A stretch of DNA of 64,000 nt from Bacteroidota bacterium (GTDB lineage: Bacteria > Bacteroidota > JABWAT01). The notes beneath the pieces are model-generated. The model was given only the letters and a program-made list of their open reading frames with translations, did no database searches and was not told the DNA's origin. Position numbers and translations under genes: made by a program. Below are positions 5,088 to 21,332 of the stretch, one piece after another. The DNA is taken from positions 707 to 64,706 of the forward strand of contig JAIUNL010000015.1 of assembly GCA_020161835.1 (NCBI GenBank), written 5' to 3'. Positions within the stretch are counted from its first letter, which is position 1. Every line of letters begins with the position of its first letter.

Positions 5088-5564
5088 TCAGAACAAAGAA
5101 AATTGTGTTTCTTTTTTAGGATAGAATACCCCGATGATGACGAAAGGATTTTTTGCTCTTCTCATGTGCCATTCTTTTGTTGACCCGAGAAAGAGATAAA
5201 TATCCTTTTCTTTCAGGAATTCCAGTTCATATTTCTCACGAACTTTTTCGAGGGCTTCTGCTTCTATTCCCTCCGCCGATTTAAAACATTTCCAATAGAG
5301 TGCTCCAATTTCCCAATCTTCAATCATCATGCGGCTTTCCCTATCCTCTTCATCCAAAAACCGGTAGTAAAACTTATAAGGTAATTTTGGAATTTGAATT
5401 TCAGGATTTTTATCCGGATCAAATAACTCACCTTGTTTTCTAAGTTCTTTCCACTCGTCTTTCCACTCCCGGATTTCTTCCTTCTCTACTTCAAAGCTGA
5501 TGATGGTTTTCGGTTTAAAGGTTGCCAGTGATCGGTTTAGGGGTGCTTTAGAATCTTCAATCAA
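5088..5564 (-). CDS. Hypothetical protein. Third gene of the Panacea-DUF488 operon.
   Basis: 158-aa acidic protein. It starts 6 bp after the upstream gene, in the same orientation. Confidence 0.45.
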   Translation of the reverse strand: MIEDSKAPLNRSLATFKPKTIISFEVEKEEIREWKDEWKELRKQGELFDPDKNPEIQIPKLPYKFYYRFLDEEDRESRMMIEDWEIGALYWKCFKSAEGIEAEALEKVREKYELEFLKEKDIYLFLGSTKEWHMRRAKNPFVIIGVFYPKKETQFSLF

Positions 5565-5570
5565 TTTTGT

Positions 5571-5918
5571 CTAACTGGTATACACTTCTGATGTACATAT
5601 CTTTTTGCGTTCCTCCCAATTATTTCTTGTATCCAGTTTACCAAAAAGCTGTATATCTTTAAAATCATAATTAACAGGTGAGTGGCTCTCCGGACGAAAA
5701 TCATCCGTTCGCTTCACCAGGTCCAGTTCCATCCAGTTATACTTGAATGACTCAACCTTGCCATCTTTACGCAAACCGCGTAAAAATTTCAGCGGAACCG
5801 GATAGATGCGGATCCATTCACCTGTTTCCAGAATGCCAGCGGTGCAAACTAATTCGTCATAACTGCGGGATGGCAGTGGATAGGTCGTTACCGTTAAAAG
5901 AACTTTTCTTCTGGCCAT
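5571..5918 (-). CDS. Hypothetical protein. Second gene of the Panacea-DUF488 operon.
   Basis: 115 aa. It starts 2 bp after the stop of 5921..6805. Confidence 0.45.
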   Translation of the reverse strand: MARRKVLLTVTTYPLPSRSYDELVCTAGILETGEWIRIYPVPLKFLRGLRKDGKVESFKYNWMELDLVKRTDDFRPESHSPVNYDFKDIQLFGKLDTRNNWEERKKICTSEVYTS

Positions 5919-5920
5919 TT

Positions 5921-6805
5921 TTAAAGATGGTTGACTTCGTATTCAAAATCAGGTAAGTTTTCTATAGCCTCTGCCAGGTGTTTTCGGTGGCATTGGCAAC
6001 TATTCGCTTCGAAACAAGTTAAAGCAATACGTTTACTCTCCCGAAGCAAGTTTAAAATGCGTAACTGAGTACCGCTCGTTTCGGTAAGATTGTTTTGACG
6101 GTAAACAGCGAATAATTGATCATAATCGCTTTGTGTATTCAATTCCCTGCGTTGTTCTGATTGAATACCAACTTCAGGAAAATGCACATACCGGATACCC
6201 AAACTCTCACAATAACGGCTTAACGAACTTTTGCTGAAACCGAATTTCATACTCAACGGATTGTTTCGGACATCCACTAAAACTTTTATATCATTTTTGA
6301 CCAGCTGGTTTAAATAGTCTTCCAGCGAAAGACCTTCATAACCGATTGTGAAGAGAACGGTTTTATCGTTTCCGGGATGACTTAATTTCACCTTTTCAAA
6401 TTGCGCTTCGGATAATATTTCTTTTGCCTTTATACTGTTTATTGCCCAATAAGGAAATTTAAGGTAAGTATATTTCATCAATTCGCCAGCGGTCATGCCA
6501 CCAAATTGCGCTTTGATACCGGCAAGCAGGTTTCTGTCATCTTCTTTGAGGAGTTTTAAGTAATCGGTCTTCTCTTTACTGATGTAATGTACCGGTGTTT
6601 CATCTACCATTCCCCGGCGAACCATCGCACCTAAATCGGCAACGGCTGAATAGGAATAACACCCAAACTTATAGGGGATAAAATCATAGTCAGGTTTGAC
6701 CTGACGTTGGGTAAAAAGGAAAAGCAACTTTTGCAGACTGATTTTATCTATCTGTCCCTCAAAAAGCTGCAATAAACTCAGGATAATTTTTCTTCTGTAA
6801 AACAT
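5921..6805 (-). CDS. Fusion protein: N-terminal Panacea-like (DUF4065/SocA-like) domain plus C-terminal DUF488 domain.
   Basis: The N-terminal segment ISLQKLLFLFTQ...FIPYKFGCYSYSAV resembles the Panacea signature (LQKLLYF...W.YGPV..VY). The C-terminal segment LFTIGYEGLSLEDYLNQLVKNDIKVLVDVRNNP...LGIRYVHFPEVG...IALTCFEANSCQCHRKHLAEAI matches the DUF488 pattern (TIGHS...LVDVR...GI.Y.......AL.C.E.....CHR). Confidence 0.55.
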   Translation of the reverse strand: MFYRRKIILSLLQLFEGQIDKISLQKLLFLFTQRQVKPDYDFIPYKFGCYSYSAVADLGAMVRRGMVDETPVHYISKEKTDYLKLLKEDDRNLLAGIKAQFGGMTAGELMKYTYLKFPYWAINSIKAKEILSEAQFEKVKLSHPGNDKTVLFTIGYEGLSLEDYLNQLVKNDIKVLVDVRNNPLSMKFGFSKSSLSRYCESLGIRYVHFPEVGIQSEQRRELNTQSDYDQLFAVYRQNNLTETSGTQLRILNLLRESKRIALTCFEANSCQCHRKHLAEAIENLPDFEYEVNHL

Positions 6806-7000: not shown

Positions 7001-10000
7001 CTATAACTCAACCTCACCACTGATAAGAAAATGCTGAAGAAGGTTGTGAATTTTTATATTCACCTTAAAAAGTGGAATAACACTTCCTTCCTTTTTTTCA
7101 AAATAGGCTTTAGCCTTTTCTTTATCTACAGACTCCTTTAAATCATCAAAACGCCCGAATTGATTGATATTCAGTTCATTTATACCCGTATTCATCATGG
7201 CTCTCAGTTTGGTTTCATCCAGACCAAGAAGTTCTGAAATATGCCGGATCTGATCGTTTTTTGCTTTGGATTGATAATCTGCAATATAATCACGGAAGGT
7301 TTTATCGCTTGCAATTGAAGCATCCCCGCTTTCAACATCATGAAGGAATATGTTGGCAAATTTCTGCTCGTCCCGGGTAAGAAACGCAAACGATTTGTGC
7401 AGATCATTTAAGGTCTGTTCCTTTTGGTCCCTGTCAATATCTTTCTGTTCCAGCATTTTAAGGTACTTTTCAAAACGGGAGTTCATATATTCTGCATTAA
7501 TAATCCCGGTATCGATCTCGGTTAAATAACCATCAATTTCAAATGGAACTTCTTCAGATCCACCTTCGCCACCACCACCACTATTTAACTCCTTATACCG
7601 AAGAGCCAGAATCAGAAACGAATTTTCATCAAAACTCATTTCGATGATTGATTTTGCTTTCCCTAAAACCGTCTCGAATTCATATTTTGACTCACTCCAT
7701 GTAAAGCCCTGTATTTTGGATGCTTCCAGATACGTGTTGAATTCTTTAAAAAGCCTTGCGAAATTGCCTCGTTCAGAAAGATCATCCGGCAATTTTTCAA
7801 AGTTTTGGATCCCGGCGTGTATGAATACCTGAAAAATTTCATCGAATACTGAATTCAGCTTTTTCAGGTTTTCATCCAAATGATCGACAAACAGTGCAAG
7901 TGGTTTGTCTCCCGAATACATTTTTACTGCCTGATTCACATACTGTTCTACTGTGTGTGGTTTCCGGTAATACCGGATGGTACCGAAAGGTTTATCTGGC
8001 CCAAACAGGCGGTTAGTTCGTGAAAAGGCCTGAATAACGTGTTCAAACTTAAGAACCTTGTCCATGTAAAGGGTATTGATCCATTTGGAATCAAAACCGG
8101 TCAGCATTTGATCGACCACAATTAAAAGATCAATCTGTTTTTCCCGATTTTTTTCTATCCGGGTGTAGGGCTCCTTGTGGGCAAGCCGTGCGGCTATATC
8201 TTTTTTCAAATTCCCATGACTTGAAAGTGCAAAATCCATTCCAAAGGTTTGATTGTAGTCTCCGATAATTTCAACCAGACCGTCTTCTTTAAATTTTACA
8301 TTCCCGTGATTATCAATATTCGGATCGAAAAGTGCAGTTATTTTCAAGTCCGTTTTTTCTTTTTTCAATAAACGGTAATAGTCAACAGCCTCAGAAATAC
8401 TGCTGGTGGCAAAAAGCGCATGAAACTTCCCGTTCCGGCTAAGAGTCAGCCATTTATCTGCAATATCACTTACGACAGCCTGCTGATGCTCGATGCGCTC
8501 ATACTGTGAAGTTGGAAGGTAATCCTCAATTCCTTTCACATATTTCCCGTTTGTGTCAAGGAAACCGGCCATTTTCACCTTTGACGCATCCATAAACTTA
8601 TAATAAACTTTGCTCTTTTTCGGGTCTTTGATGGCTTCCTTTTCACTGGTTGCCTTTGCCTCTGCGATGGCAACAGCTTTTCTCAGGTCGTGGTCTTTAT
8701 AGGTCATAACCTTATACGGATCGAAACCCAGAACATTTTTGTCCCGGATGCCATCGGCAATACTGTATCGATGTAACTCATCGCCAAAAACAGTTGACGT
8801 GGTGTTCAGTTTTTTTTGGTTCTCATCCTGAATGGGAGTGCCGGTAAAACCAAAGAACAAGGCCTCAGAAAATGTTTTCTTGATCGATGTCAGCATTTTA
8901 CCAAAGGTTGACCGGTGTGCTTCATCCACAATAAAGACAATCCGTTTTGACTTCATAAGCTTAATATCGTGGGAATTGAGTCCCCCATCTTCATCTTTGA
9001 TATTGCTCATTTTTTGGATGGAAGTAACGATAAGCGTATCGGCAGGTTTGGTACTTTTGAGTTTGGAAACTAAAACGCCGGTATTTTCGGTGGCCTGAAC
9101 CTCTTCGTTTTCGTCTGCAAAATTGCTGTATTCCTTAAGTGATTGGGTTCCCAGTTCTATCCGGTCCATCAAAAAAAGAACTTTGTCTGCATCCTTCGAG
9201 TTTGCTATAAGTTGTGCCGATTTAAAACTGGTCATGGTTTTGCCGGAACCGGTGGTATGCCAGATGTATCCACCCCGCTGGGAATGTGCTTTCCAGTCGG
9301 TTTTTGAAACTTTATCCGAAATAGCGTTGGCAGCATAATACTGGTAACTGCGCATGACCTTCAGAATGCCGTCAGAATCATCGGCAACCGTGTAGAACCC
9401 GATTAGTTGATGTGCCATCGGAATGGAGAGGAGTGTTGAAGCAATGAGTGCCCACTGATTGATGGGTTCATTGTTGAAATCGGCCCAATGGAAATAATAA
9501 TCTTTATTGAATTTGCCATCGGGACCGGGATTGGCAAAATAGACCGTTTCGCCGGGTTCCATAGCCACAAAAATCTGAATGAGAGAAAACAACCCTGTAA
9601 AAATGCCCTCACCGGTATATTTTTCAATTTGGTTACAGGCTTGACTGACCGGAATTCCACTCCGTTTCAGTTCGATGTGGATGACCGGCATACCGTTGAT
9701 CAGCAGCAACAGATCACCCCGGCGGTCATTCAGGATTTTTGATTTGCTTGTAAAATGGGGTTGATGCACAATCTGATACCGGCTTTGCCCTGCGGCAATC
9801 TCACGGCGGTCGTAGATTTTCAGACTGACTTCTTTACCAAAATGATCAGGATCGGCAGGATTGTCACGGACGATTGAAACGGTTTTGCCATTGATAAACC
9901 CGTTCAGCTTTAATGGCGTTCTTAGCCGGGTAATCTGTTCAAGAATCTGGGCCATTTCACCATTGGTTAGGGGTGTTTCATTCAGGCGGTCGATCCCACG

Positions 10001-10141
10001 GTTGTTTTCGAAAAGAATAGAAGCCCAGTTTTGCAGTAACTCACCCTCAGTGGGGTGTTTCAGAATATCGTTTTCCCACCCTTTATTCCTCAGAATTTCG
10101 ATAAGTGCTTCTTCAAAACCGGATTCGCTGGCAAATGACAT
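7001..10141 (-). CDS. hsdR: Type I restriction enzyme, R subunit (HsdR).
   Basis: 1046 aa. HsdR-type N-terminus (SESGFEEALIEILRNKGWE). Walker A (HTTGSGKTMTSF). DEAH box (FIVDEAHRS). It is the last gene of the hsdM-hsdS-hsdR run. Confidence 0.9.
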   Translation of the reverse strand: MSFASESGFEEALIEILRNKGWENDILKHPTEGELLQNWASILFENNRGIDRLNETPLTNGEMAQILEQITRLRTPLKLNGFINGKTVSIVRDNPADPDHFGKEVSLKIYDRREIAAGQSRYQIVHQPHFTSKSKILNDRRGDLLLLINGMPVIHIELKRSGIPVSQACNQIEKYTGEGIFTGLFSLIQIFVAMEPGETVYFANPGPDGKFNKDYYFHWADFNNEPINQWALIASTLLSIPMAHQLIGFYTVADDSDGILKVMRSYQYYAANAISDKVSKTDWKAHSQRGGYIWHTTGSGKTMTSFKSAQLIANSKDADKVLFLMDRIELGTQSLKEYSNFADENEEVQATENTGVLVSKLKSTKPADTLIVTSIQKMSNIKDEDGGLNSHDIKLMKSKRIVFIVDEAHRSTFGKMLTSIKKTFSEALFFGFTGTPIQDENQKKLNTTSTVFGDELHRYSIADGIRDKNVLGFDPYKVMTYKDHDLRKAVAIAEAKATSEKEAIKDPKKSKVYYKFMDASKVKMAGFLDTNGKYVKGIEDYLPTSQYERIEHQQAVVSDIADKWLTLSRNGKFHALFATSSISEAVDYYRLLKKEKTDLKITALFDPNIDNHGNVKFKEDGLVEIIGDYNQTFGMDFALSSHGNLKKDIAARLAHKEPYTRIEKNREKQIDLLIVVDQMLTGFDSKWINTLYMDKVLKFEHVIQAFSRTNRLFGPDKPFGTIRYYRKPHTVEQYVNQAVKMYSGDKPLALFVDHLDENLKKLNSVFDEIFQVFIHAGIQNFEKLPDDLSERGNFARLFKEFNTYLEASKIQGFTWSESKYEFETVLGKAKSIIEMSFDENSFLILALRYKELNSGGGGEGGSEEVPFEIDGYLTEIDTGIINAEYMNSRFEKYLKMLEQKDIDRDQKEQTLNDLHKSFAFLTRDEQKFANIFLHDVESGDASIASDKTFRDYIADYQSKAKNDQIRHISELLGLDETKLRAMMNTGINELNINQFGRFDDLKESVDKEKAKAYFEKKEGSVIPLFKVNIKIHNLLQHFLISGEVEL

Positions 10142-10164
10142 TGTGATTTAAGCCTTTTTATAAT

Positions 10165-11361
10165 TCATACAAACATCTTTTCCAGACAGGCCTTTTTGAT
10201 GGCCTTTAGTTTTTCTAGTTCTTGCAAATGAAGTGTAATAATGGTTTCGTGATTTTGAAAATATCCTGCTATTTTTTCTTGCTCTTCTTTCTTTGGAAGT
10301 TTAAAAGGGGTAGCTTTTGCTTGCTCAATTGTATAATGTGAGATTGTTCCAATATGAGTAATGCTATTTACATAATTTCTGAAAGTTGAAGTTGAAAAAA
10401 AAGTATATAAAAAAGAACCGTTAATTTCTTCGGTATTTTTTAACCATAGCAAATCTCCATCTTTGAAGTATAAAGGCTCATTAGTCTTAACCAAAAAAGG
10501 AATCCCAATTGAACCACCACCAGTAACCAGAAGGTCATTTTTTTGAACGGAACCAGACTTTTTCAATAACTCTTCATATAAATTCTGAGAGATATATGCT
10601 TTTTTATTATCTGAGCCATAATATGCAGAAATAACATCACTCGTCCTAAAAAATGGTACTCCAGAATCTGTCCATTCATTCTTATGAACACGAGAAGCTG
10701 ATGAAATTTCCATTACCTCCCCCAACTTCCGTTCTTCCCACTTGCCCGTAAACTCTTTAAAACGAATTTCAGGCACATCTGAACCCGATTTGGGAAACAT
10801 TTTTTCGAGCATGGCCGTATTTAAAGTGGTCAGCTTGTCGTATTTGCGCTGATGCAGAGTGATGAGAATGTCAAGCTGGTTGAAATATTCTCCAATTTTT
10901 TCTTGTTCAAAAATATTTAAAGGCGCTAAAAGCTCAAGCTTCATCATTGTTTCTGCATTGAGTTTTGCACGCCCCCCACCTACCAAAAAAGGTTCAATTT
11001 GGGTTTGAGAAATAACATATTTAAGATATTTATTTTTAGCGATATCCTGTTTTGCCTGAAGAACATGAGCATGGTTATTTACCCATATTTTTCCATTTAC
11101 GAACTGTACAGGATAATCTTTCAAATCGTTTGCACCGTCTTCGGCAACGAGAATAAATTCTCCATCATGGGTAAAACCTTCAACATAATCCTGAATACCA
11201 TTTGCACCATAGTAAGGTGTGTCACCCGGTATCCTTTCAGAAGCAGTTATAGGGACTCTCAAATTGTCATATCTATCAGCAATATCTTTTAATTCAAACT
11301 TATCCCAATCCTCATTAAATCCTTTAAACCGAATATCCGGTTTAGTTTTTCCCTCAGTCAT
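10165..11361 (-). CDS. hsdS: Type I restriction-modification specificity subunit (HsdS), two target-recognition domains.
   Basis: 398 aa with duplicated TRD architecture and conserved central and C-terminal spacer repeats. It overlaps the hsdM stop by 8 bp. Confidence 0.85.
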   Translation of the reverse strand: MTEGKTKPDIRFKGFNEDWDKFELKDIADRYDNLRVPITASERIPGDTPYYGANGIQDYVEGFTHDGEFILVAEDGANDLKDYPVQFVNGKIWVNNHAHVLQAKQDIAKNKYLKYVISQTQIEPFLVGGGRAKLNAETMMKLELLAPLNIFEQEKIGEYFNQLDILITLHQRKYDKLTTLNTAMLEKMFPKSGSDVPEIRFKEFTGKWEERKLGEVMEISSASRVHKNEWTDSGVPFFRTSDVISAYYGSDNKKAYISQNLYEELLKKSGSVQKNDLLVTGGGSIGIPFLVKTNEPLYFKDGDLLWLKNTEEINGSFLYTFFSTSTFRNYVNSITHIGTISHYTIEQAKATPFKLPKKEEQEKIAGYFQNHETIITLHLQELEKLKAIKKACLEKMFV

Positions 11362-13939
11362 TGTTGTTCCCTTTTAACAGCAACTGAAATTCAGCAAGTC
11401 CTTTCAGGTCGTGTTCATTGCCCGTAAGGTCATCAATCAGGGAAGCTAACGTTTTTTCCGTTTCGTGAATCTGCTCCATCACGTCTTTGTAAGTGGTGGC
11501 ATATTTCAAAGCAAGGGTTTGTACTTTGGCAGCGAGTTCAGTTATGACTGTTTCAGGCAGTTTATGCAGGGAACTCAGGAGCGGGGTTATCCATTTTAAT
11601 TCCAGTAAGTGGTGCACCTGGTCATCGGTAAGCGCTTCAATGGTTTCTTTGGTGAGGTTATGCAGTTTCGTCGCTTCGGTTCTGAGCCGGGCTTTCAAAT
11701 CTTTCTCCTCGGAAATCAGTTCTGCGAGTTTCAGAATTTTTGCTTCCAGAGTTTCTTCTGCAAACACTTCATTCTTCTTCAGGCTGGCCTGTATCTGTTT
11801 TGCTTCTTTGGTAATGGCAGAGGATACAAAGCTGTCACCGGCTTCGTTGGTTAGTTCGCTTTCTTTTTCTTCTTCCGTCAGGGTTTCCATTATTTCATCG
11901 TAACCGGCACTAATTTCTGCCAGCCGGTTTTCCATTGTTTTCAGATTCTGGTATTCTGTGTTGAGGTAAGTTTTTTGCACGAGTTCAAAGGGAAGCACAC
12001 GCCCGGTCCATCCGTCCTGTACTTCCTGCGAAGTGTTTCCTACGGTCTTCTTCAACACCAGGTTCGGGTCTACTTTTCGGGTGGTTTCAAATCCTTCGGT
12101 TTGTATGATTTCCAGATCACCGGCTATTTTTATCCATTCATCATCAAGAAGCTGAAATGCCCCGTATTTATCAATCAATGAAAAGGATTTGAGCCGGTTA
12201 AAAATTTCATTGCTCAGAATGGTTTCTTCTTTTGATAGAGTCACTGACAGCATATTTTTAAGCAAGTCATTCCGTAGTGTGCCGTCAAAACCAGCGAAGG
12301 CGGTTTTAAATTTGCCTGAAAAGGTTTGTACACTTTTATGTTCCCTGATGGCCGCCTTTACATCAGTTACTTTCAAACCGACATACGGTGAACCGTTATT
12401 CAGAAACAATGCCTCACGCAAACCCGGCAGCGCATTCCAGTAGAGCGACAACCCGTCAATTTCCTTTTTTGGTATTCCGCCAAACATCGAGGCATAAAGA
12501 TCCCAGCTTTCGGCCTTTTCAGACGAATCGACATACCGGGGAATGTTCAGGTTATAGTCGTTTGACCGTATTTCTTCCCGGCTTACCACTTTCGAAAAGT
12601 TGGGAACTGGGTAACGGCCAACCACAGTATCGGCAATCCGTTTAATGTCAGAAGCCCTGAGCTGGTTGTTTTTTCCAACTTTCGTGAATCCTTTCGAGGC
12701 ATCAACAATCAGCACATCGGTGTTTGTCCGTTTTTGCTTCAGCACCATGATAATGGTTGGGATTCCTGTACCAAAGAAAATATTGCCCGGAAGCCCGATG
12801 ATAGTATCAATGTGATTACATTCAATCAGGTTTTTACGGATGGCTCCTTCTTCACCCCCACGGAACAACACCCCGTGTGGCAGCACGATGGTCATAATGC
12901 CATCGGGTTTAACGTGGTAGAGATCGTGAAGCAGAAAAGCATAATCGGCTTTGGTTTTAGGTGCCAGACCAAAACGGGCATAACGGGGGTCGGTTTCTTT
13001 ATTGGCAGAATCCCATTTCTGTGAATAAGGCGGATTTGAAACCACGGCATCAACATAAAGCGGATTGTAGGTATTAACCGGGTCGTTTTCTTCGAAATAG
13101 GGCCAGTCATCCTCAAGTGTATCGGCGTTGCGGGTGAAAATATTATCAGCCAGAATTCCACGCATCACCAGGTTCATCCGGGTAAGGTTGTAGGTATTCT
13201 CCTTCAATTCCTGAGCATAGTACATGATACTGTTATCGTTGGCGAAGTGCCTGGCTACACTTCGGCCAATATTGATCAACAAGGATCCGGACCCACTTGT
13301 CGGATCATAAATTTTGATTTCTGTTCTGTCTTTTAAATGATTGGCCACAATTTCTGACATCAGCACAGAAACTTCGTGGGGGGTGTAAAACTCACCGGCT
13401 TTTTTACCGGCATTTGCTGCAAACATTCCGATGAGGTATTCATAGATAAATCCCAATACATCATAATCCTGTTGCCCATCCATCGGAATATCTTTAATGA
13501 GATGGATCAGCTGACTGATGGCCTTTGTCTGGGCACCTGAACTATCACCCAGTTTACTCAATCCGGTTTCGAGGGTGTTAAATATTTTCTCAAACAGTTT
13601 TTTATGTTTCGGGTAGATTGAACGGTTGAAAGCAGAAAGGGCATCACGGACGTTAGACACATCAAAGTCATTCCCCATGCTAATCCAGGTCGAAAACAAA
13701 TCCTTATGGGCAATAAAAAAACCAATATTGCTTTTGAAATATTCCGCATCACCATCAGAAAGAGTGATTAAATCGTTTTCTGTAAAATCTTCCCTTTTGG
13801 CAAATTTGATTTCCTGCTCAGACAGGTACTTATAGAAGATAAACCCCAGTATGTAATCTTTGTATTCATTTGCTTCAATTTTCGACCGCATCTGGTTGGC
13901 AGATTCCCAGATTTTTGCAGCCAATTGCTGTTTGTTCAT
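11354..13939 (-). CDS. hsdM: Type I restriction-modification N6-adenine DNA methyltransferase (HsdM), long form with a C-terminal coiled-coil extension.
   Basis: HsdM N-terminal domain. SAM-binding region. NPPY catalytic motif (VVSNPPYSQKWD). About 300 extra C-terminal residues rich in E/K/L heptad-like sequence. Confidence 0.9.
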   Translation of the reverse strand: MNKQQLAAKIWESANQMRSKIEANEYKDYILGFIFYKYLSEQEIKFAKREDFTENDLITLSDGDAEYFKSNIGFFIAHKDLFSTWISMGNDFDVSNVRDALSAFNRSIYPKHKKLFEKIFNTLETGLSKLGDSSGAQTKAISQLIHLIKDIPMDGQQDYDVLGFIYEYLIGMFAANAGKKAGEFYTPHEVSVLMSEIVANHLKDRTEIKIYDPTSGSGSLLINIGRSVARHFANDNSIMYYAQELKENTYNLTRMNLVMRGILADNIFTRNADTLEDDWPYFEENDPVNTYNPLYVDAVVSNPPYSQKWDSANKETDPRYARFGLAPKTKADYAFLLHDLYHVKPDGIMTIVLPHGVLFRGGEEGAIRKNLIECNHIDTIIGLPGNIFFGTGIPTIIMVLKQKRTNTDVLIVDASKGFTKVGKNNQLRASDIKRIADTVVGRYPVPNFSKVVSREEIRSNDYNLNIPRYVDSSEKAESWDLYASMFGGIPKKEIDGLSLYWNALPGLREALFLNNGSPYVGLKVTDVKAAIREHKSVQTFSGKFKTAFAGFDGTLRNDLLKNMLSVTLSKEETILSNEIFNRLKSFSLIDKYGAFQLLDDEWIKIAGDLEIIQTEGFETTRKVDPNLVLKKTVGNTSQEVQDGWTGRVLPFELVQKTYLNTEYQNLKTMENRLAEISAGYDEIMETLTEEEKESELTNEAGDSFVSSAITKEAKQIQASLKKNEVFAEETLEAKILKLAELISEEKDLKARLRTEATKLHNLTKETIEALTDDQVHHLLELKWITPLLSSLHKLPETVITELAAKVQTLALKYATTYKDVMEQIHETEKTLASLIDDLTGNEHDLKGLAEFQLLLKGNNND

Positions 13940-14182
13940 ACGTGTGCTTTTGGGTCTTATTAAATTGAATGTGGTCTATTAAAGGTTTTCAAGATAGTAA
14001 TATTGTACTATAAAAATTGCGGTAAGCTGGCAAAAAACAGCATTTTGTCAATCTTTGGCCGGAAAAAGTAGTTTAGGTTCCATTTTACAATTCAACAGGA
14101 AACCTTTTGAACTTAAACCTCATTGTTTCCGCAAAGAAATGACAGAAGTAATTTTCGTATATTTGCAATCAGAGGTGATAAC

Positions 14183-14677
14183 ATGGAAAATATACTTTTC
14201 CTTTCCTACAATAAAGATTCTGACATGGGTCAGCATTCAGCACTAAGGCTTCAAACTATAGCCGGGCTTTACGGCTTTTCAGTTGTTTTACCTTTACGCC
14301 GTCCCAATTCAAGTGCAATTAACCAGGAAACAAAAACCCGGATTGATTCTGCTGACATGGTCGCAATCTTTGCTCTTGAAGGGGTTTCTAAAGGCGTGAA
14401 TGAAGAAATTGTTTATGCCTCACAGAAAAATAAGCCGGTTATTGTTTTGTTCCAAAAAGGGATGCCCCAGAGTGGCTTCCCCAAAAATGACAATATCAGA
14501 GCCGTAGAGGTAGATTTTAATTCGATTGACAAAGCCTCATATGAAGTTGCAGAATTTCTGAAAGGTCAGTTTTCGGCCCGTACAAAAAAAGGTAAAGAAA
14601 CTGCCGGTTCCGGTTCCGCTCTCATTCTTTTGGGGTTGGGACTTTTAGCTGCATGGGCATTGACTAAAGATAAATGA
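14183..14677 (+). CDS. TIR-like (DUF1863/ThsB-like fold) protein with a C-terminal transmembrane helix.
   Basis: The ORF track begins at 14123, but the ATG at 14183 is preceded by GAGGTGA, and a -7 TAtaTTTG box lies just upstream. The N-terminus ENILFLSYNKDSD resembles TIR beta-A (VFISYSHKD / FFSFHYQD). The C-terminus SALILLGLGLLAAWAL is hydrophobic. Confidence 0.4.
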   Translation: MENILFLSYNKDSDMGQHSALRLQTIAGLYGFSVVLPLRRPNSSAINQETKTRIDSADMVAIFALEGVSKGVNEEIVYASQKNKPVIVLFQKGMPQSGFPKNDNIRAVEVDFNSIDKASYEVAEFLKGQFSARTKKGKETAGSGSALILLGLGLLAAWALTKDK

Positions 14678-15204
14678 GGAAACCAACAGCTATCATTGAT
14701 ACTTCAGTTCTGCTTTGTCTTTTCCGTCTTAATATTCTTGATAAACTGAATCTTTTATTCTCTGAAATCCGAGTTCCAAGAAAAGTTGAATCAGAATTTC
14801 TTTTCCGTACTGATCCGACAGAAGCAAGTGCCAGATTCAAGTTTATTACCAGCTTTTATGAAAGTCACCGGAGATGGTTTATTCAATGTAATGAATACGA
14901 TTCTGCAACGGTTGAAATTTATGTCAAGATTGAAAAACTTGATCCGGGTGAATCTGAAGTTTTTGCACAAAACCAGTATCTTGATAATACCCATACACTT
15001 TTGATTGATGAAAAAAAAGCCCGGAAAGTAGCCTTTAAAAAACAAGCAACCGTTCATGGCTTTTTATTTATTCTGGCGTCACTTGATATTAAATACGGTA
15101 TCTGTGATTATCAAAAAGGCATCACCATACTTCAAAAAGAAGGGTTAGGCCATTTTCCCGAAACCCTTGTTAAATCGGTTTACCAGTACGTAAAGGATAA
15201 CTGA
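14674..15204 (+). CDS. DUF3368-family PIN-like nuclease (toxin-like).
   Basis: The N-terminus AIIDTSVLLCLFRLNILDKLNLLFSEIRVPRKVESEF matches the DUF3368 PIN signature (ViDtS.li.L.kig.ldlL..ly.ei.iP..V..E). The ATGA start overlaps the upstream stop. Confidence 0.55.
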   Translation: MRKPTAIIDTSVLLCLFRLNILDKLNLLFSEIRVPRKVESEFLFRTDPTEASARFKFITSFYESHRRWFIQCNEYDSATVEIYVKIEKLDPGESEVFAQNQYLDNTHTLLIDEKKARKVAFKKQATVHGFLFILASLDIKYGICDYQKGITILQKEGLGHFPETLVKSVYQYVKDN

Positions 15205-15464
15205 TTTCTTCCGACCTAATAAATTATCTACAAAATCAGTTGGAATCAACCATTTGGTGATGATAGGTTATCCAAAACCAAATAACTTTCTTAACTTTTT
15301 TCGGTTTATAGTATATTTCGTATATTTGAATTGGTGTTTGAAAAAGCACCTACAAACCTGCCATCAACAATGCCGGAAAACCCAACTTTACCTATGTGAA
15401 GCGGTGCCGGTTCGGGCGGGTTTTTTTTTGCTTTTTTTTGTAGCCTTTTCTTACCTTTGCTATT

Positions 15465-15565
15465 GCTCTTCCTACCTGAACGGGGGCTTTGTGTCGGCGT
15501 GTCTGAGGTAGCAGACTCCATTGCCGTAATCTGAAATAACAAATGCCCCTGAGCCTCATTTTTTT
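15465..15565 (+). ncRNA. Candidate structured small RNA, repeat family A, copy 1. It has its own promoter and terminator.
   Basis: Upstream -33 TTTG, a 20-nt spacer, then -7 TAccTTTG at 15452-15459. Hairpin GTCTG-AGGTAG-CAGAC at 15501-15516. Its loop is complementary to the upstream CTACCT at 15472-15477. An outer stem GGGGGCTTTG / CAAATGCCCC encloses both. A T8 run follows. Confidence 0.5.
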
Positions 15566-15566
15566 T

Positions 15567-15640
15567 GTGTGGGGGAAACGCTCAGGGCGATGAGTGCGGG
15601 GGTTCCACTGGAACGTATTGACACGCCCCCACCGCTTTTT
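15567..15640 (+). ncRNA. Structured repeat family B, copy 1. Terminator- or attenuator-like.
   Basis: GTGGGGG ... CCCCCAC stem followed by CGCTTTTT. A second internal G-run (GCGGGGG) offers alternative pairing with the same C-run. A near-identical copy lies at 16815-16887. Confidence 0.4.
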
Positions 15641-15751
15641 CTGATATACATTGTTTTGGCTACAAGTTCCTTCTTCTCCGGTTCACAAGTCCTCAACTTA
15701 AGACATGTTTGTCTTTGCTTTTTTTCGTGCTGGTTTCTTACCTTTGCCGTT

Positions 15752-15865
15752 GCTCTTCCCAACTGAACGGGGGCTTTGCGTCGGCGTGTCTGAGTTGGCA
15801 GACTCCAGTGCCGTGGACTTAAACAGCAAATGCCCCTGAGCAAATTATTCGGTATTTTAATTTTT
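15752..15865 (+). ncRNA. Candidate structured small RNA, repeat family A, copy 2.
   Basis: Same promoter boxes (TTTG, a 21-nt spacer, then TAccTTTG at 15739-15746). Same hairpin and outer stem. Upstream CCAACT pairs with hairpin loop AGTTGG. Relative to copy 1 these are compensatory substitutions. Confidence 0.5.
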
Positions 15866-16458: not shown

Positions 16459-16814
16459 ACAGATATTATATCTTACAGCATAAAATTCCTGGTTTACCCA
16501 GTTTTGAATTTGGTTTGTCTTGGCTTTTAAATTATAAATTGAAAAGTCAGATACCAGATTGGGTAAATTTTGGGTTATACTTCTGGATACATTTTCATCT
16601 TTATGCATCAAATATTCCTTCCGTCCCGGCATGGATACGCCGGATAGCGGTAAAGGGAAGTTGGGAAAGTCTGGGGCTTAAACCCCAGACAACCAACTGA
16701 AGCTGACTCAAAAAGTATAAAAACTGGAACCCATTTTTCAGGTCAGGGCTTTGTCTTTTGGCGGCCTAAGATTGACAGTTTTCATTTTTTCTTCGGTTCT
16801 GATATTTTTGTTTT

Positions 16815-16887
16815 GTGTGGGGGAAACGCTCTGGGCGTTGCGTGCAGGGTTTCCAATGGAAGGCATTGACACGCCCCCACCGTTTTT
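16815..16887 (+). ncRNA. Structured repeat family B, copy 2, about 80 nt upstream of ORF 16969..17280.
   Basis: Near-identical to 15567-15640, with the same G-run/C-run stem and T-run. Confidence 0.4.
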
Positions 16888-18178: not shown

Positions 18179-18673
18179 TTGAACTACGAAATAGTCGAAT
18201 TACAGCCATTCAGTGGGAGTGAGGCAAAGATTTACTCCCTTATTCCAAAGGGAGAAGATGAAACCTTGTTCGAGAAGTTCGTGGTGGAGTACAAGGCCGG
18301 ATTTAAAAATGAAGTAAAAGATATAATCAAAACCATTTATCAGATTGGTCATACAACAGGAGCAAGAAGTTCGTTCTTTAAGCAACATGAAGGGAAGTAT
18401 GGTGACTTCGTTTGTGCCTTGTTTGATGTACCGGAAAAGAATTTGAGAGTGTATTGTATCCGGTTCGGAATGGTGGCTGTTATTCTCGGTGGTGGTGGAG
18501 AAAAAGCAGAGGGTGTCAGAGCATGGCAGGATGATGAAAAGTTATCAAAAGAAGCAAATCAAATGATTGACTATGCAAAGGATATTTTGAAGCGACTTGA
18601 TGACGGTGATTTGTATTGGTCAAAAGATAAAACAGAGTTAGAAGGAAATTTAAAAAATTACGATGATGAATAA
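18179..18673 (+). CDS. HigB-like toxin of the Gp49/DUF891 family (RelE/ParE superfamily).
   Basis: NLRVYCIRFGMVAVILGGGGEKAEG...I..A resembles the Gp49 motif (RV.Y.......VLLHGF.KK.QK.P..EI..A). It is followed, with an overlap, by an XRE-type HTH gene. Confidence 0.45.
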   Translation: MNYEIVELQPFSGSEAKIYSLIPKGEDETLFEKFVVEYKAGFKNEVKDIIKTIYQIGHTTGARSSFFKQHEGKYGDFVCALFDVPEKNLRVYCIRFGMVAVILGGGGEKAEGVRAWQDDEKLSKEANQMIDYAKDILKRLDDGDLYWSKDKTELEGNLKNYDDE

Positions 18674-19124
18674 GCCAACAAAAGCGAGAAAATATAATAG
18701 TTCAATACTCAATGAACTATTGGACGAAATTACACCATTGGAAATGGAACAAACAAAAGTGAAAATGCAACTTGCTGCTTCTATTGAAGATTATATGAAT
18801 GCAAAAGGTTGGAATAAGTCGCAGTTTGCTGAAAAGGTTGGGAAAAATCCGTCCGAAATTACAAAATGGTTTAGCGGCACACAAAATTTCACCATTGATG
18901 TGTTGACTGAAATTGCTTCTGCACTTGGGGTTGAGCTACCTGCCTTATTTGGCAAAAAGCAAGTCCAGATGATTTATCGAAAAGAAATTGTCGTTAAAGC
19001 TGCCGCCCCCCAACCAACTATTTTTATGACAACACCTATGTCACATGGCATAGATGTCTATGGGTATAATCTATTTGCAATTCAAGGGAACAAAACAGCA
19101 CTCACAAAAAATTACCAGGCATAA
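18663..19124 (+). CDS. HTH XRE-family antitoxin-like protein (HigA-like).
   Basis: HTH_XRE segment GWNKSQFAEKVGKNPSEITKWFSGTQNFTIDVLTEIASALGVEL. It overlaps the upstream toxin-like gene by 11 bp. Confidence 0.55.
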   Translation: MMNKPTKARKYNSSILNELLDEITPLEMEQTKVKMQLAASIEDYMNAKGWNKSQFAEKVGKNPSEITKWFSGTQNFTIDVLTEIASALGVELPALFGKKQVQMIYRKEIVVKAAAPQPTIFMTTPMSHGIDVYGYNLFAIQGNKTALTKNYQA

Positions 19125-19125
19125 A

Positions 19126-19581
19126 ATGGCTAAGATTGAGAATGCAGACGTCAACGTCGAAATAAAAATAAAAGCAATTGAACTATTAAAGGGTTCCTTA
19201 CAGTTACCTGCAGTCCCCAATACTACGGTTACAACATTTAATTTTAACATTAGTATTGAAAGTAGGGCGGATGCGCCAAACAAACTTGTCTTTGTAATTG
19301 TCAATGTTGATATAAAAAATGATGACTACTCACTTGTCCTTGGGGCACTTTCGGTGAGCTGCATTTTTGAAATTGTCAATTTTGATGAAGTAATTAAAAG
19401 TGATGGGAACGGGAACCTTGTTTTACCTCTGCGGTTGATTGAAACACTCAACAGCATTTCGATTTCAACAACCAGAGGGGTTATGTTTTCTACTTTCAAA
19501 GGAACCTTTTTACATGGAGCAATCCTTCCAATAATTGACCCTAAACAATTTCAACCCGATACCCCAAAAGTCGGAAAATAG
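19126..19581 (+). CDS. Hypothetical protein.
   Basis: ATG at 19126, 2 bp after the HigA-like stop. The ORF track gives 19054 as the start, but the overlap makes that unlikely. No motif. Confidence 0.3.
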   Translation: MAKIENADVNVEIKIKAIELLKGSLQLPAVPNTTVTTFNFNISIESRADAPNKLVFVIVNVDIKNDDYSLVLGALSVSCIFEIVNFDEVIKSDGNGNLVLPLRLIETLNSISISTTRGVMFSTFKGTFLHGAILPIIDPKQFQPDTPKVGK

Positions 19582-19850: not shown

Positions 19851-20765
19851 ATGATATCATTTCAATATCATTACGAAAGGACAAACAAAATGACACAGGA
19901 ATTCTCTGCAAAAACTCAAAGCGGATGGCTGGTATTACCCCTTCTCATTCTCCTCCTGATTGCAGATATCGCCGGTATTGCCTTCACCACTCAACTGGAT
20001 GAATCCTTGGTTCCCTGGTTTCTGATTCCGCTCCTTCTGGCCGGAATTATCATTCTGATTCTGTTTGGCGGATTTTTTACCCTTGAACCAAATGAATCAG
20101 CCGTCCTGATTTTCTTCGGAAAATATGAGGGAACTGAAAAAATATCAGGTTTCCGCTGGACGAATCCGTTCAACGTCAAAAAGAAATTATCGCTCAGAAC
20201 CCGCAACTTTGACAGCCAGAAACTGAAAGTGAATGATAAAAAGGGGAATCCGATCGAAATTTCCGTCGTGGTGGTCTGGAAAATCGGAAATACCGCCCAG
20301 GCTGTGTTTGATGTTGAAAATCAGCATGAATTTGTAACCGTTCAGGCCGAATCTGCAATCCGCCATGTGGCAACTTCTTATGCCTATGACAGTTCCGATT
20401 CTGAAGAATTCAGTTTAAGATCTTCCCTGTCAGAAGTTTCTGAAGAACTCGAAAAAGAAATTCAGGAACGGGTGAAAGATGCTGGTGTCATCATTTCAGA
20501 AGCCAGAATCAACCACCTGGCCTACGCACCCGAAATAGCCGGAGCTATGCTTCAGCGTCAGCAGGCAGAAGCAATTATTGCGGCAAGAACCAAAATTGTG
20601 GATGGCGCAGTTGGTATGGTTCAAATGGCTCTTATCAGACTCAAAGAAGAAGGCGTCGTCGATCTCGACGAAGAACGGAAGGCTGCAATGATAAGCAATC
20701 TGCTTGTCGTTCTCTGCGGAGATAAATCAACCACACCGATCATCAATGCGGGTACAATTTATTAA
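19851..20765 (+). CDS. SPFH/band-7 domain membrane protein.
   Basis: Two N-terminal TM segments followed by an SPFH core. The start is possibly the MTQEF at 19890. Confidence 0.6.
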   Translation: MISFQYHYERTNKMTQEFSAKTQSGWLVLPLLILLLIADIAGIAFTTQLDESLVPWFLIPLLLAGIIILILFGGFFTLEPNESAVLIFFGKYEGTEKISGFRWTNPFNVKKKLSLRTRNFDSQKLKVNDKKGNPIEISVVVVWKIGNTAQAVFDVENQHEFVTVQAESAIRHVATSYAYDSSDSEEFSLRSSLSEVSEELEKEIQERVKDAGVIISEARINHLAYAPEIAGAMLQRQQAEAIIAARTKIVDGAVGMVQMALIRLKEEGVVDLDEERKAAMISNLLVVLCGDKSTTPIINAGTIY

Positions 20766-20766
20766 G

Positions 20767-21114
20767 ATGGCAATAACCCGAAATCAAAAACTGTTGCTGC
20801 TTTCTGCATTCCCCTTTTTTCTGGCGGGAACAGACAGTGTTTTCCATGGAAACTGGATTGCCATTTCGCTGAATCTTGCAATGGGCGGACTTAATCTGTT
20901 AGGTCTGTTCTGGATTGAAAAACATCATTTTCCTGTCCAGATCGGATTAAGTATTGCAAATTCAGCGATGGCTTTTACAACTGCCTGGTTGTTTAAAGAA
21001 GCAGGAAAAGAGTATCTTCCGCTGATCTGGTTGTTTGTGGGACTTTTATTCCTGTTTACCGCCTGGAATTTCTGGCGTAAAGGGAATGCTGAAAAAAATA
21101 GCCGGAGTGTCTGA
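20767..21114 (+). CDS. Small integral membrane protein.
   Basis: ATG 2 bp after the SPFH stop. Three hydrophobic helices. Co-transcribed with SPFH, in the NfeD-like position. Confidence 0.4.
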   Translation: MAITRNQKLLLLSAFPFFLAGTDSVFHGNWIAISLNLAMGGLNLLGLFWIEKHHFPVQIGLSIANSAMAFTTAWLFKEAGKEYLPLIWLFVGLLFLFTAWNFWRKGNAEKNSRSV

Positions 21115-21332
21115 TGGCTTCACCGGCCGATAAAAAGAAGAATTTGCTGCTCCGTATTGACCCTTCCCTCTGGAATGATCTGAATGCCATGTCTGCTGAC
21201 GAACTCAGAAGTCTGAATGGCCAGATTGAATACATCCTGAGGGAATCGGTCAAAAAGTGGAAAAAGCAAAATCCAAATCAGGAAAAGCCACCTGACCCGA
21301 CAGATGACGACGACAAAATCTGGATGGGGTAA
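21114..21332 (+). CDS. Arc/MetJ-type ribbon-helix-helix DNA-binding protein.
   Basis: KKNLLLRIDPSLWNDLNAMSADELRSLNGQIEYILRESV is an RHH signature (beta strand, helix, SLN.QIEYLL). Confidence 0.5.
   Translation: MASPADKKKNLLLRIDPSLWNDLNAMSADELRSLNGQIEYILRESVKKWKKQNPNQEKPPDPTDDDDKIWMG

What the first reader, a model, noticed from the sequence alone, without database searches (positions are those of the whole stretch)
14123..15204. Overlapping pair: membrane-anchored TIR-like protein and DUF3368 PIN nuclease
A roughly 164-aa protein has a TIR/DUF1863-like N-terminus (ILFLSYNKDSD, beta-A-like) and a C-terminal TM helix. Its stop overlaps the start of a DUF3368 PIN-domain protein (ATGA). DUF3368 toxins normally pair with small UPF0175 antitoxins. 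A TIR-like membrane partner is atypical. TIR domains are NADase or signal-generating modules in Thoeris and CBASS-like defense, so this could be a new TIR-plus-nuclease arrangement. It sits on the opposite side of the RM operon from the Panacea-DUF488 operon.
Basis: partly seen in the sequence, partly recalled or inferred. Interest (0 to 1): 0.7.

Follow-up and report, generated by a model that had tools for sequence, protein, structure and literature searches.

The report
Membrane TIR-like protein paired with PIN nuclease
Two overlapping genes, one for a membrane-anchored TIR/NDT-like protein and one for a VapC-type PIN nuclease, form a strictly conserved and apparently undescribed pair that looks like a new toxin–antitoxin or phage-defence module.

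Summary

A is followed directly by B in all 38 fetched loci with enough downstream sequence. Flanks differ across about 21 lineages of Bacteroidota, and the pair also sits on a Leptospira plasmid. Two look-ups starting from B homologues found A directly upstream. No UPF0175 gene and no ThsA-like gene is present. The pair lies in a defence island (PDC-M19, type I RM, PDC-M64).

The most likely reading is a TA-like or abortive-infection module. B would be the RNase effector. A would be a tail-anchored partner that replaces UPF0175 and probably binds or cleaves a nucleotide. No activity was tested. I found no prior description. Novelty: new variant of a known kind.

The parts
14158..14165 (+). 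Candidate Bacteroidetes-type -7 promoter element (TATATTTG, consensus TAnnTTTG), 17 nt upstream of gene A's ATG
   Evidence: the motif is present here and lies 14-17 nt before the start in L005, L010, L014, L027, L028 and L029. It is conserved in L013. The consensus itself is from my own knowledge of Bacteroides promoters and was not tested.
14183..14677 (+). Gene A: 164-aa tail-anchored TIR/NDT-like protein, member of an unannotated family
   Evidence: The AF2 model has pLDDT 86 and pTM 0.84. The family has 242 clusters at 50% identity with E<=1e-3.
14183..14575 (+). Cytoplasmic Rossmannoid (TIR/NDT-type) domain, residues 1-131 (b1 3-9, aA 14-30, b2 32-35, aB 48-56, b3 59-63, aC 70-81, b4 86-91, b5 105-111, aE 116-129)
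14405..14407 (+). Codon for E75, the candidate catalytic or ligand-binding glutamate on helix aC
   Evidence: E in 87 and D in 4 of 92 family members.
14612..14665 (+). C-terminal transmembrane (tail-anchor) helix, residues about 144-161 (SALILLGLGLLAAWALT), followed by a 3-4 residue polar tail
   Evidence: G151 is present in 82 of 92 members and G153 in 75 of 92. There is no N-terminal signal peptide, because the N-terminus is strand b1.
14674..14677 (+). ATGA overlap between gene A's stop and gene B's start (translational coupling)
   Evidence: In the homologous loci the two genes overlap or lie at most about 22 nt apart.
14674..15204 (+). Gene B: 176-aa VapC-like PIN-domain protein of the COG2405/DUF3368 clade, with conserved acidic residues D9, E41, E93 (GExE) and D112

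Best explanation
This is a mobile two-gene toxin-antitoxin-like or abortive-infection module. Gene B encodes a catalytically competent VapC-type PIN ribonuclease, which is the toxic effector. Gene A is made first, from the same short-leader transcript, and is translationally coupled to B. It takes the place of the usual UPF0175 antitoxin. A is a tail-anchored membrane protein whose cytoplasmic TIR/NDT-like domain binds B and keeps it inactive at the inner face of the membrane. A's pocket is lined by nearly invariant N10, P37, R39, T50, R53 and E75, which suggests A also binds or cleaves a nucleotide such as NAD+ or a (modified) NMP. Release or activation of the PIN would then follow a nucleotide cue, a membrane cue during phage infection, or loss of A. 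What is shown: gene structure, folds, residue conservation, strict bidirectional co-occurrence, mobility between phyla, and defence-island context. What is inferred: which partner is toxic, physical binding between A and B, membrane insertion, any enzymatic activity of A, RNA as the target, and any role in phage defence.
For: B has a VapC-like PIN fold with the acidic tetrad conserved. COG2405/DUF3368 PINs are predicted TA toxins whose antitoxin lies upstream (PMC5499597). A occupies that upstream position with an ATGA overlap. A-then-B is found in 38 of 38 loci across about 21 lineages with unrelated flanks. It is also found on a Leptospira plasmid, and look-ups starting from B find A upstream. 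This is the behaviour of a self-contained mobile module. Neighbours are often TA or defence genes: MNT/HEPN and DUF2442/DUF4160 in L001, an AAA_15 ATPase in L011, an integrase in L026, and PDC-M19, type I RM and PDC-M64 in the window. B hits the PADLOC defence candidate PDC-S70. B is frameshifted while A stays intact in L011/L012 and L034, and the reverse is never seen; this is weak evidence. Both genes are under purifying selection. There are precedents for non-VapB partners of VapC-like PINs in validated defence (HEC-03, an ABC ATPase plus PIN) and for Rossmannoid DprA-like antitoxins (ShosA, PsyrA). A's conserved Glu and polar residues are documented.
Against: A has no recognisable DNA-binding or intrinsically disordered toxin-binding region of the kind found in classical type II antitoxins. 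A near-invariant catalytic-position Glu is not needed for simple sequestration, so A may be an enzyme with a different role. No A-B complex could be modelled with these tools. Many loci sit among housekeeping genes (lepA, the trp operon, recA-cinA, uvrB), so enrichment in defence islands is not established statistically. The frameshifts in B may be assembly errors, and L011 and L012 are identical in sequence, so they may not be independent. No toxicity, neutralisation or phage data exist.
Confidence: 0.5

Rival explanations
1. Thoeris-like signalling pair. A is an active TIR enzyme that oligomerises in the membrane when it senses infection and converts NAD+ into a signalling nucleotide. That nucleotide binds and activates the PIN effector B, which is harmless without it. 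B therefore needs activation by A's product rather than neutralisation by A.
For: The Glu at the TIR catalytic position is nearly invariant. TIR_2 or ThsB_TIR profile hits occur in 34 and 8 of 92 members respectively. The best PDB sequence hit is a ThsB cyclic-ADPR synthase, E=1.7e-4. The conserved small-residue motif in the TM helix (G151, G153) could drive the self-association that TIR active sites need. This is an inference from established TIR enzymology. Loss of B with A intact would also be tolerated under this model.
Against: B is a bare PIN domain plus two or three C-terminal helices, with no SLOG, Macro, SAVED, CARF or other known nucleotide-sensor domain. The window protein itself does not reach any TIR threshold. 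The best structural matches are NMP N-glycosidases (MilB, BcmB, DNPH1) as much as TIRs. The WxxxE-type aromatic residue four positions before the Glu is not conserved (position 71). Tight translational coupling in the antitoxin-then-toxin order is typical of TA pairs rather than sensor-effector pairs.
Confidence: 0.2
2. Reversed roles. A is the toxin, either an NAD+/nucleotide-depleting glycosidase or a membrane-disrupting glycine-zipper helix. B is its antitoxin or regulator, with the PIN fold used for binding or for autoregulatory RNA cleavage.
For: TIR and other NAD+ glycohydrolases are well-known toxins and abortive-infection effectors (PMC8494770). A's TM helix is unusually conserved and rich in small residues. 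Some TA families do have the toxin gene first.
Against: B keeps all four PIN acidic residues across the family, which argues for catalysis rather than a scaffold role. B is frameshifted with A intact in two lineages, which should be lethal or strongly counter-selected if A were an unneutralised toxin (weak evidence). COG2405 PINs are the toxin partner in their other known contexts.
Confidence: 0.12
3. Not a conflict system. The pair is a housekeeping or stress-related membrane-associated RNA-processing or nucleotide-salvage pair: an NDT/DNPH1-like nucleotide hydrolase plus an RNase. It merely happens to lie near defence genes in this window.
For: Several homologous loci are flanked by housekeeping genes such as lepA, the trp operon, recA/cinA/ligT and uvrB. 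The best fold matches include the nucleotide-metabolism enzymes MilB and DNPH1.
Against: The distribution is patchy, with only 8 of 185,579 GTDB species representatives found by the close-family patterns. Flanks are unrelated between lineages. The pair occurs on a Leptospira plasmid in a different phylum. Other TA or defence genes are frequent neighbours. These are hallmarks of accessory, horizontally moving modules, not core metabolism.
Confidence: 0.08

Closest known systems
COG2405/DUF3368 PIN - UPF0175 (COG2886) predicted type II toxin-antitoxin pairs (Makarova 2009; Matelska 2017, PMC5499597)
   Different: The upstream partner is not the small UPF0175 protein. It is a 164-aa TIR/NDT-fold protein with a conserved catalytic-position Glu and a C-terminal TM anchor. 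The literature states that UPF0175 is found exclusively with COG2405. The only other partners it lists are HTH plus DUF955.
Thoeris (ThsB TIR + ThsA) and other TIR NADase defence proteins (SARM1, SPARTA TIR-APAZ, TIR-STING)
   Different: No ThsA-type effector (SIR2-SLOG or TM-Macro) is present. The effector candidate is a bare PIN with no known sensor domain. A is tail-anchored. The window protein fails all TIR profile thresholds. NADase activity is untested.
NDT-family nucleotide N-glycosidases (MilB, BcmB, DNPH1/Rcl, nucleoside 2-deoxyribosyltransferase)
   Different: The Pfam score (16.7 bits) is below the cutoff (28.8). The 'GT' dipeptide that precedes the Glu in that motif is not conserved in A's family. 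NDT enzymes are soluble metabolic enzymes, not membrane-anchored partners of a nuclease.
HEC-03 (ABC ATPase + VapC-like PIN), an experimentally validated phage-defence system (bioRxiv 10.1101/2024.01.29.577857)
   Same: [quoted passage not shown] The logic is the same: a non-canonical partner acts as sensor or regulator of a PIN.
   Different: The partner there is a soluble ABC ATPase, not a TIR/NDT-like membrane protein. There is no detectable sequence relationship to A.
ShosTA / PsyrTA (Rossmannoid DprA-like antitoxins)
   Same: These are two-gene TA systems with proven phage defence, in which the neutralising partner is a nucleotide-binding Rossmannoid domain rather than a DNA-binding antitoxin.
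   Different: Their toxins carry PRTase domains, not a PIN. Their antitoxins are soluble DprA-like proteins. No PADLOC ShosA or PsyrA model hit A.
PADLOC PDC-S70 (single-gene PIN defence candidate)
   Same: Gene B matches six PDC-S70 models, the best at E=8.5e-16.
   Different: PDC-S70 is defined as a single gene, is mostly archaeal and is unvalidated (PMC12988326). Here the PIN is obligatorily paired with gene A, which that definition does not capture.

Membership tests
TIR domain (Pfam TIR_2 PF13676 / ThsB_TIR PF08937 / TIR PF01582) | Significant match to a TIR profile | tested here: inconclusive
   The window protein has no TIR-family Pfam hit at E<=10 and only PADLOC ThsB at E=0.011. At family level, 34 of 92 members hit TIR_2 at E<=0.01 (best 1.4e-9), 8 hit ThsB_TIR and 2 hit TIR. 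NCBI names one member a TIR domain-containing protein.
TIR domain (Pfam TIR_2 PF13676 / ThsB_TIR PF08937 / TIR PF01582) | Flavodoxin-like alpha/beta fold with a five-stranded parallel sheet | tested here: met
TIR domain (Pfam TIR_2 PF13676 / ThsB_TIR PF08937 / TIR PF01582) | Conserved catalytic glutamate on helix aC | tested here: met
   E75 is E in 87 and D in 4 of 92 members.
TIR domain (Pfam TIR_2 PF13676 / ThsB_TIR PF08937 / TIR PF01582) | NAD+ cleavage or cyclic-ADPR isomer production dependent on self-association | not testable with these tools
   This needs a biochemical assay.
Nucleoside 2-deoxyribosyltransferase-like N-glycosidases (PF05014; MilB/BcmB/DNPH1) | Match to PF05014 above the gathering score | tested here: not met
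   16.7 bits against a cutoff of 28.8, E=0.0085. Only 6 of 92 members hit at E<=0.01.
Nucleoside 2-deoxyribosyltransferase-like N-glycosidases (PF05014; MilB/BcmB/DNPH1) | Nucleophile Glu within the (D/P)-G-T-x-x-E-x-G-x-A motif | tested here: inconclusive
   The Glu and the following x-x-(Y/F)-A align. The preceding G-T is replaced by variable residues (consensus 'LSxxVxxExxYA').
DUF3368 / COG2405 PIN (PF11848) | Match to PF11848 | tested here: inconclusive
   With the local PF11848.13 the window protein has no hit at E<=10, and only 1 of 16 clade members hits, at E=0.25. Precomputed PF11848.14 hits are recorded for all 9 homologues at 44-95% identity and for the downstream genes of most look-ups. 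The difference probably reflects the model version.
DUF3368 / COG2405 PIN (PF11848) | PIN fold with conserved acidic active-site residues | tested here: met
DUF3368 / COG2405 PIN (PF11848) | Upstream UPF0175 (PF03683) antitoxin partner | tested here: not met
   The upstream gene has a TIR/NDT fold and no PF03683 hit. No other conserved small ORF is seen between or beside the pair in 38 loci.
Type II toxin-antitoxin module (VapBC-like) | Two small co-directional, tightly coupled genes with mobile, patchy distribution | tested here: met
   ATGA overlap. 38 of 38 loci are paired with unrelated flanks. The pair occurs on a plasmid in another phylum.
Type II toxin-antitoxin module (VapBC-like) | Antitoxin with a DNA-binding domain (RHH, AbrB, HTH or Phd) for autoregulation | tested here: not met
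   No such domain is found in A by Pfam, NCBIfam or PADLOC or in the structure model.
Type II toxin-antitoxin module (VapBC-like) | Toxicity of one partner, neutralised by direct binding of the other | not testable with these tools
   This needs expression and pull-down experiments.
Thoeris | ThsA-type effector (SIR2-SLOG or TM-Macro) next to the TIR gene | tested here: not met
   The neighbours in the window are type I RM, PDC-M19, PDC-M64, an HTH protein and unannotated small ORFs. In the other loci the only conserved neighbour is the PIN gene.
PADLOC PDC-S70 (candidate single-gene PIN defence) | Match to PDC-S70 HMMs | tested here: met
   Gene B matches six models, the best (PDLC05071) at E=8.5e-16. 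The candidate itself is unvalidated.

The most novel reading that the evidence does not exclude
Gene A is a catalytically active, membrane-tethered TIR/NDT-type N-glycosidase that acts as an infection sensor. It would recognise or cleave NAD+ or a phage-specific (modified) nucleotide at the membrane, in the way its best structural matches MilB and DNPH1 act on hydroxymethyl-pyrimidine nucleotides. This chemistry would control a VapC-like PIN RNase. Control could work through a small-molecule product, through covalent modification of the PIN or its RNA target (a type VII-like enzymatic antitoxin), or through ligand-induced release. That would be a new class of nucleotide-gated PIN defence system, found mainly in Bacteroidota.
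Probability: 0.3. Interest if true: 0.8.

Novelty: new variant of a known kind. Interest (0 to 1): 0.62.

Why it matters
PIN/VapC toxins are among the most abundant TA toxins. The COG2405/DUF3368 branch was thought to pair with UPF0175, or with HTH plus DUF955. This work defines a sizeable unannotated family (242 clusters at 50% identity) of tail-anchored TIR/NDT-like proteins that pair obligatorily with their own PIN clade.

If A merely sequesters B, it is a new antitoxin fold and a rare membrane-anchored antitoxin. If A's conserved Glu pocket is catalytic, the module would link TIR/NDT nucleotide chemistry to RNase-mediated growth arrest. That would be a new sensor-effector logic for abortive infection, in a phylum (Bacteroidota) whose defence systems are poorly explored.

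The result also shows that the 'single-gene' PADLOC candidate PDC-S70 hides at least one two-gene system. The module is only about 1 kb, so it is easy to clone and test.

Tried and rejected
1. Divergent UPF0175 antitoxin. Rejected: A has a confident Rossmannoid fold and no PF03683 hit.

2. PEP-CTERM or VPDSG-CTERM sorting signal at A's C-terminus. The hits are at noise level (E=2.5 and 7.6), and A has no signal peptide. I read it as a tail anchor.

3. Start at TTG 14123. Rejected in favour of ATG 14183: homologues align from MENIL/MTKSI, the promoter motif lies inside the extension, and the start is conserved in L013.

4. Phage-encoded module. There were no hits in IMG/VR using close-family patterns, none in the GenBank phage collection for A or B and none in PHROGs. 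The Leptospira plasmid locus does have phage-like peptidase neighbours.

5. A-B fusion proteins, which would be evidence of interaction. None was seen among the 150 best family representatives, all of which are under 250 aa.

6. Sequence match of B's profile to any PDB chain. None at E<=0.1, so fold comparison was needed.

7. The afdb50 fold library was unavailable.

8. The search for related loci with the broad alignment A2 failed for lack of a conserved stretch. The genome and metagenome surveys therefore sample only the closer half of the family. Distant members were covered by four direct look-ups instead.

9. The sigma-70 promoter and terminator scan gave nothing convincing, as expected for a Bacteroidota-type genome.

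10. Trimming the TM region to bring the SARM1 alignment into the printed PDB output lost the SARM1 hits. That point should be treated as a lead, corroborated.

11. The frameshifts in B as evidence of toxin decay are kept only as weak evidence.

12. Model coordinates are not exposed, so I could not check whether the conserved residues cluster in 3D.
Full report
**1. The observation**

The region holds two + strand ORFs. ORF A runs 14123..14677 from a TTG, or 14183..14677 from the first ATG, which gives 164 aa. ORF B runs 14674..15204 and gives 176 aa. A's TGA stop overlaps B's ATG, giving ATGA at 14674-14677.

The ATG at 14183 is the likely start, for three reasons:
- All homologues align from this position.
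- The closest relative, L013, conserves the MENILFLSYNKDSD N-terminus.
- A Bacteroidetes-type -7 element (TAnnTTTG; here TATATTTG at 14158-14165) lies 17 nt upstream, inside the TTG extension. The same motif lies 14-17 nt upstream of the start in 6 of the 19 homologous loci examined. The consensus itself is from my own knowledge.

Both genes are under purifying selection relative to L013. Synonymous:nonsynonymous codon changes are 24:13 for A and 19:9 for B.

**2. Gene A**

Direct profile searches on the window protein give only sub-threshold hits:
- Pfam Nuc_deoxyrib_tr, E=0.0085 (16.7 bits against a cutoff of 28.8)
- two SLOG families
- PADLOC ThsB, E=0.011

A word-indexed homologue search found only 10 clusters. 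An exhaustive HMMER profile search then found 242 representatives at 50% identity with E<=1e-3, and 143 with E<=1e-10. Nearly all are 150-190 aa and match end to end. Most have no Pfam annotation. In a 92-member alignment, 34 members hit Pfam TIR_2 (best 1.4e-9), 8 hit ThsB_TIR, 6 hit Nuc_deoxyrib_tr, 3 hit Nuc_deoxyri_tr2 and 2 hit TIR. NCBI names one member a TIR domain-containing protein.

AlphaFold2 gives a confident model (pLDDT 86, pTM 0.84). It shows a b-a-b-a-b-a-b-b-a Rossmannoid domain (residues 1-131), a short basic linker and a long C-terminal helix at 135-163.

Fold comparisons agree with each other:
- Foldseek ranks MilB, the SARM1 TIR, BcmB, DNPH1 and the SPARTA TIR as the compact-domain hits.

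A therefore belongs to the TIR/NDT N-glycosidase superfamily. Neither sequence nor fold places it cleanly in one branch.

Conservation across the 92 members:

| Residue | Members conserved (of 92) |
|---|---|
| P37 | 92 |
| I54 | 89 |
| R22 | 88 |
| E75 | 87 (plus 4 Asp) |
| R39 | 87 |
| A79 | 86 |
| T50 | 81 |
| N10, T25, R53 | 80 each |

E75 lies on helix aC. It aligns with three reference glutamates:
- the Glu of 'REEIDYG' in the ThsB structure 9uv0 (profile E=1.7e-4)
- the nucleophile Glu of 'PGTHIEIGWA' in the CMP N-glycosidase 4jen
- SARM1 E642 in 'KEIVTAL'. Its score and span match the full-length SARM1 hits, and PDB titles name the E642A and MilB E103A mutants.

By analogy with TIR structures, N10 (AA loop), P37 and R39 (BB loop), T50 and R53 (aB) and E75 (aC) should surround one pocket.

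The C-terminal helix is strongly hydrophobic and its sequence is conserved (consensus GIGLGLLAL; G151 in 82 of 92 members, G153 in 75 of 92). A short polar tail follows it. A has no signal peptide. Together these features describe a tail-anchored protein with its enzyme-like domain in the cytoplasm.

**3. Gene B**

The window protein gets no hit in the local Pfam copy at E<=10, and only 1 of 16 clade members touches PF11848.13, at E=0.25. All nine close homologues (44-95% identity) and the downstream genes in most look-ups do carry precomputed PF11848.14 hits. B also matches six PADLOC PDC-S70 models, the best at E=8.5e-16.

D9, E41 and E93 (in the GExE motif) are invariant, and D112 is nearly invariant. 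B is therefore a probably active VapC-like PIN of the COG2405/DUF3368 branch. It has no extra sensor domain.

**4. The pairing**

- Six context look-ups for close A homologues and four for distant ones (28-32% identity) all show a PIN gene immediately downstream.
- Scanning all fetched loci with HMMs for A and B gives A directly followed by B in 38 of 38 loci with enough downstream sequence. The gap is at most about 22 nt, or the genes overlap. This covers about 21 lineages. In the two remaining loci the contig ends.
- Two look-ups starting from B homologues find an A-family gene directly upstream.
- Flanking genes are unrelated between lineages. They include lepA, the trp operon, recA-cinA, uvrB, MNT/HEPN and DUF2442/DUF4160 TA pairs, an AAA_15 ATPase, an integrase and type I RM.
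- All eight GTDB hits are Bacteroidota: Saprospiraceae, Runella/Spirosomataceae, Kordia and unclassified members.
- The only hit for either protein among 72,556 plasmids is a Leptospira interrogans plasmid that carries the complete overlapping pair, including A's TM helix.
- No hits were found in viral contigs, GenBank phages or PHROGs.
- B is frameshifted while A stays intact in L011/L012 (identical sequences) and in L034. The reverse was not seen. This is suggestive but weak.

**5. Window context**

The pair lies in a defence island:
- PDC-M19A, a DUF488 protein, at 5921..6805
- PDC-M19B, split over two ORFs, at 5571..5918 and 5088..5564
- type I RM genes hsdR, hsdS and hsdM at 7001..13939, transcribed divergently from the pair
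- PDC-M64B at 18179..18673, an HTH protein at 18663..19124 and PDC-M64C at 19054..19581

**6. Interpretation**

Matelska et al. 2017 (PMC5499597) describe COG2405/DUF3368 PINs as predicted TA toxins. They state that UPF0175 is found exclusively with them, and that HTH plus DUF955 forms an alternative three-component arrangement. Here the upstream antitoxin position is held by a completely different protein.

The simplest reading is partner replacement. B is the RNase toxin or effector, and A is its cognate neutraliser. A's strict conservation of a catalytic-position Glu and of several Arg, Thr and Asn residues suggests it also binds or turns over a nucleotide. Its conserved TM helix suggests that membrane localisation or oligomerisation matters.

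Precedents exist for both halves of this logic:
- HEC-03 is a validated defence system in which a VapC-like PIN works with a partner unrelated to VapB.
- ShosTA and PsyrTA are TA-type defence systems whose antitoxins are Rossmannoid, DprA-like proteins.

I give about 0.5 to the model 'B effector, A neutralising or regulatory partner'. The rivals get about 0.2 for Thoeris-like signalling, where B's lack of a sensor domain is the main objection; about 0.12 for reversed roles; and about 0.08 for a non-conflict function.

**7. Novelty**

Full-text searches found no description of this pairing. I searched for DUF3368, COG2405, PDC-S70, TIR+PIN+toxin-antitoxin and 'TIR-PIN'. PDC-S70 is catalogued as a single-gene, unvalidated PIN candidate.

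The library lacks many subscription-journal papers, so prior mention in comparative-genomics supplements cannot be excluded.

I rate this a new variant of a known kind: a PIN-toxin TA or abortive-infection module with a new, membrane-anchored TIR/NDT-like partner family. Interest is about 0.6. It would rise to about 0.8 if A proves to be a catalytic nucleotide sensor.

Noticed in passing
window 15420-15554 / 15707-15841 and 15559-15639 / 16807-16887: Just downstream of gene B there are two pairs of direct repeats in apparently non-coding DNA: 135 nt at 84% identity and 81 nt at 88% identity. The 81-nt unit has GGGGG...CCCCC ends flanked by T-runs. There is no Rfam hit. Predicted folding is not clearly better than shuffled sequence (z between -0.6 and -1.6). 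The core 18-mer occurs only twice in the window and in none of the fetched loci.
   Followed up: partly
The DUF488 protein (5921..6805) is PDC-M19A (E=2.3e-124). PDC-M19B is split across two adjacent ORFs, 5571..5918 matching profile positions 3-108 and 5088..5564 matching 114-269. This suggests a frameshifted or interrupted gene. No Panacea/DUF4065 hit was seen.
   Followed up: partly
window 18179-19581 (+ strand): A second candidate defence operon lies here: PDC-M64B (18179..18673, E=1.8e-41), an HTH_3 protein (18663..19124) and PDC-M64C (19054..19581, E=1.3e-17). Together with the type I RM genes this makes the region a defence island.
   Followed up: no
L041 (Leptospira interrogans plasmid pLiSL47, NZ_CP092989.1, record 20033-21245): A complete TIR-like plus PIN pair sits on a spirochaete plasmid, next to M15 and D-Ala-D-Ala carboxypeptidase-type (endolysin-like) genes. 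Both genes are annotated only as hypothetical proteins. This is the only hit outside Bacteroidota, and it implies inter-phylum transfer of the intact module.
   Followed up: partly
Gene B and its clade (window 14674-15204; alignment A4): The local Pfam-A copy (PF11848.13) fails to detect this PIN clade, while precomputed PF11848.14 annotations do detect it. Annotation of these proteins therefore depends on the Pfam release.
   Followed up: yes
L011 155-2142 / L012 190-2177: In one lineage the pair lies directly downstream of an AAA_15/AAA_21 (ABC/OLD-like) ATPase gene and a 235-aa gene of unknown function. This may be another defence system. In the same locus the PIN gene is frameshifted.
   Followed up: no
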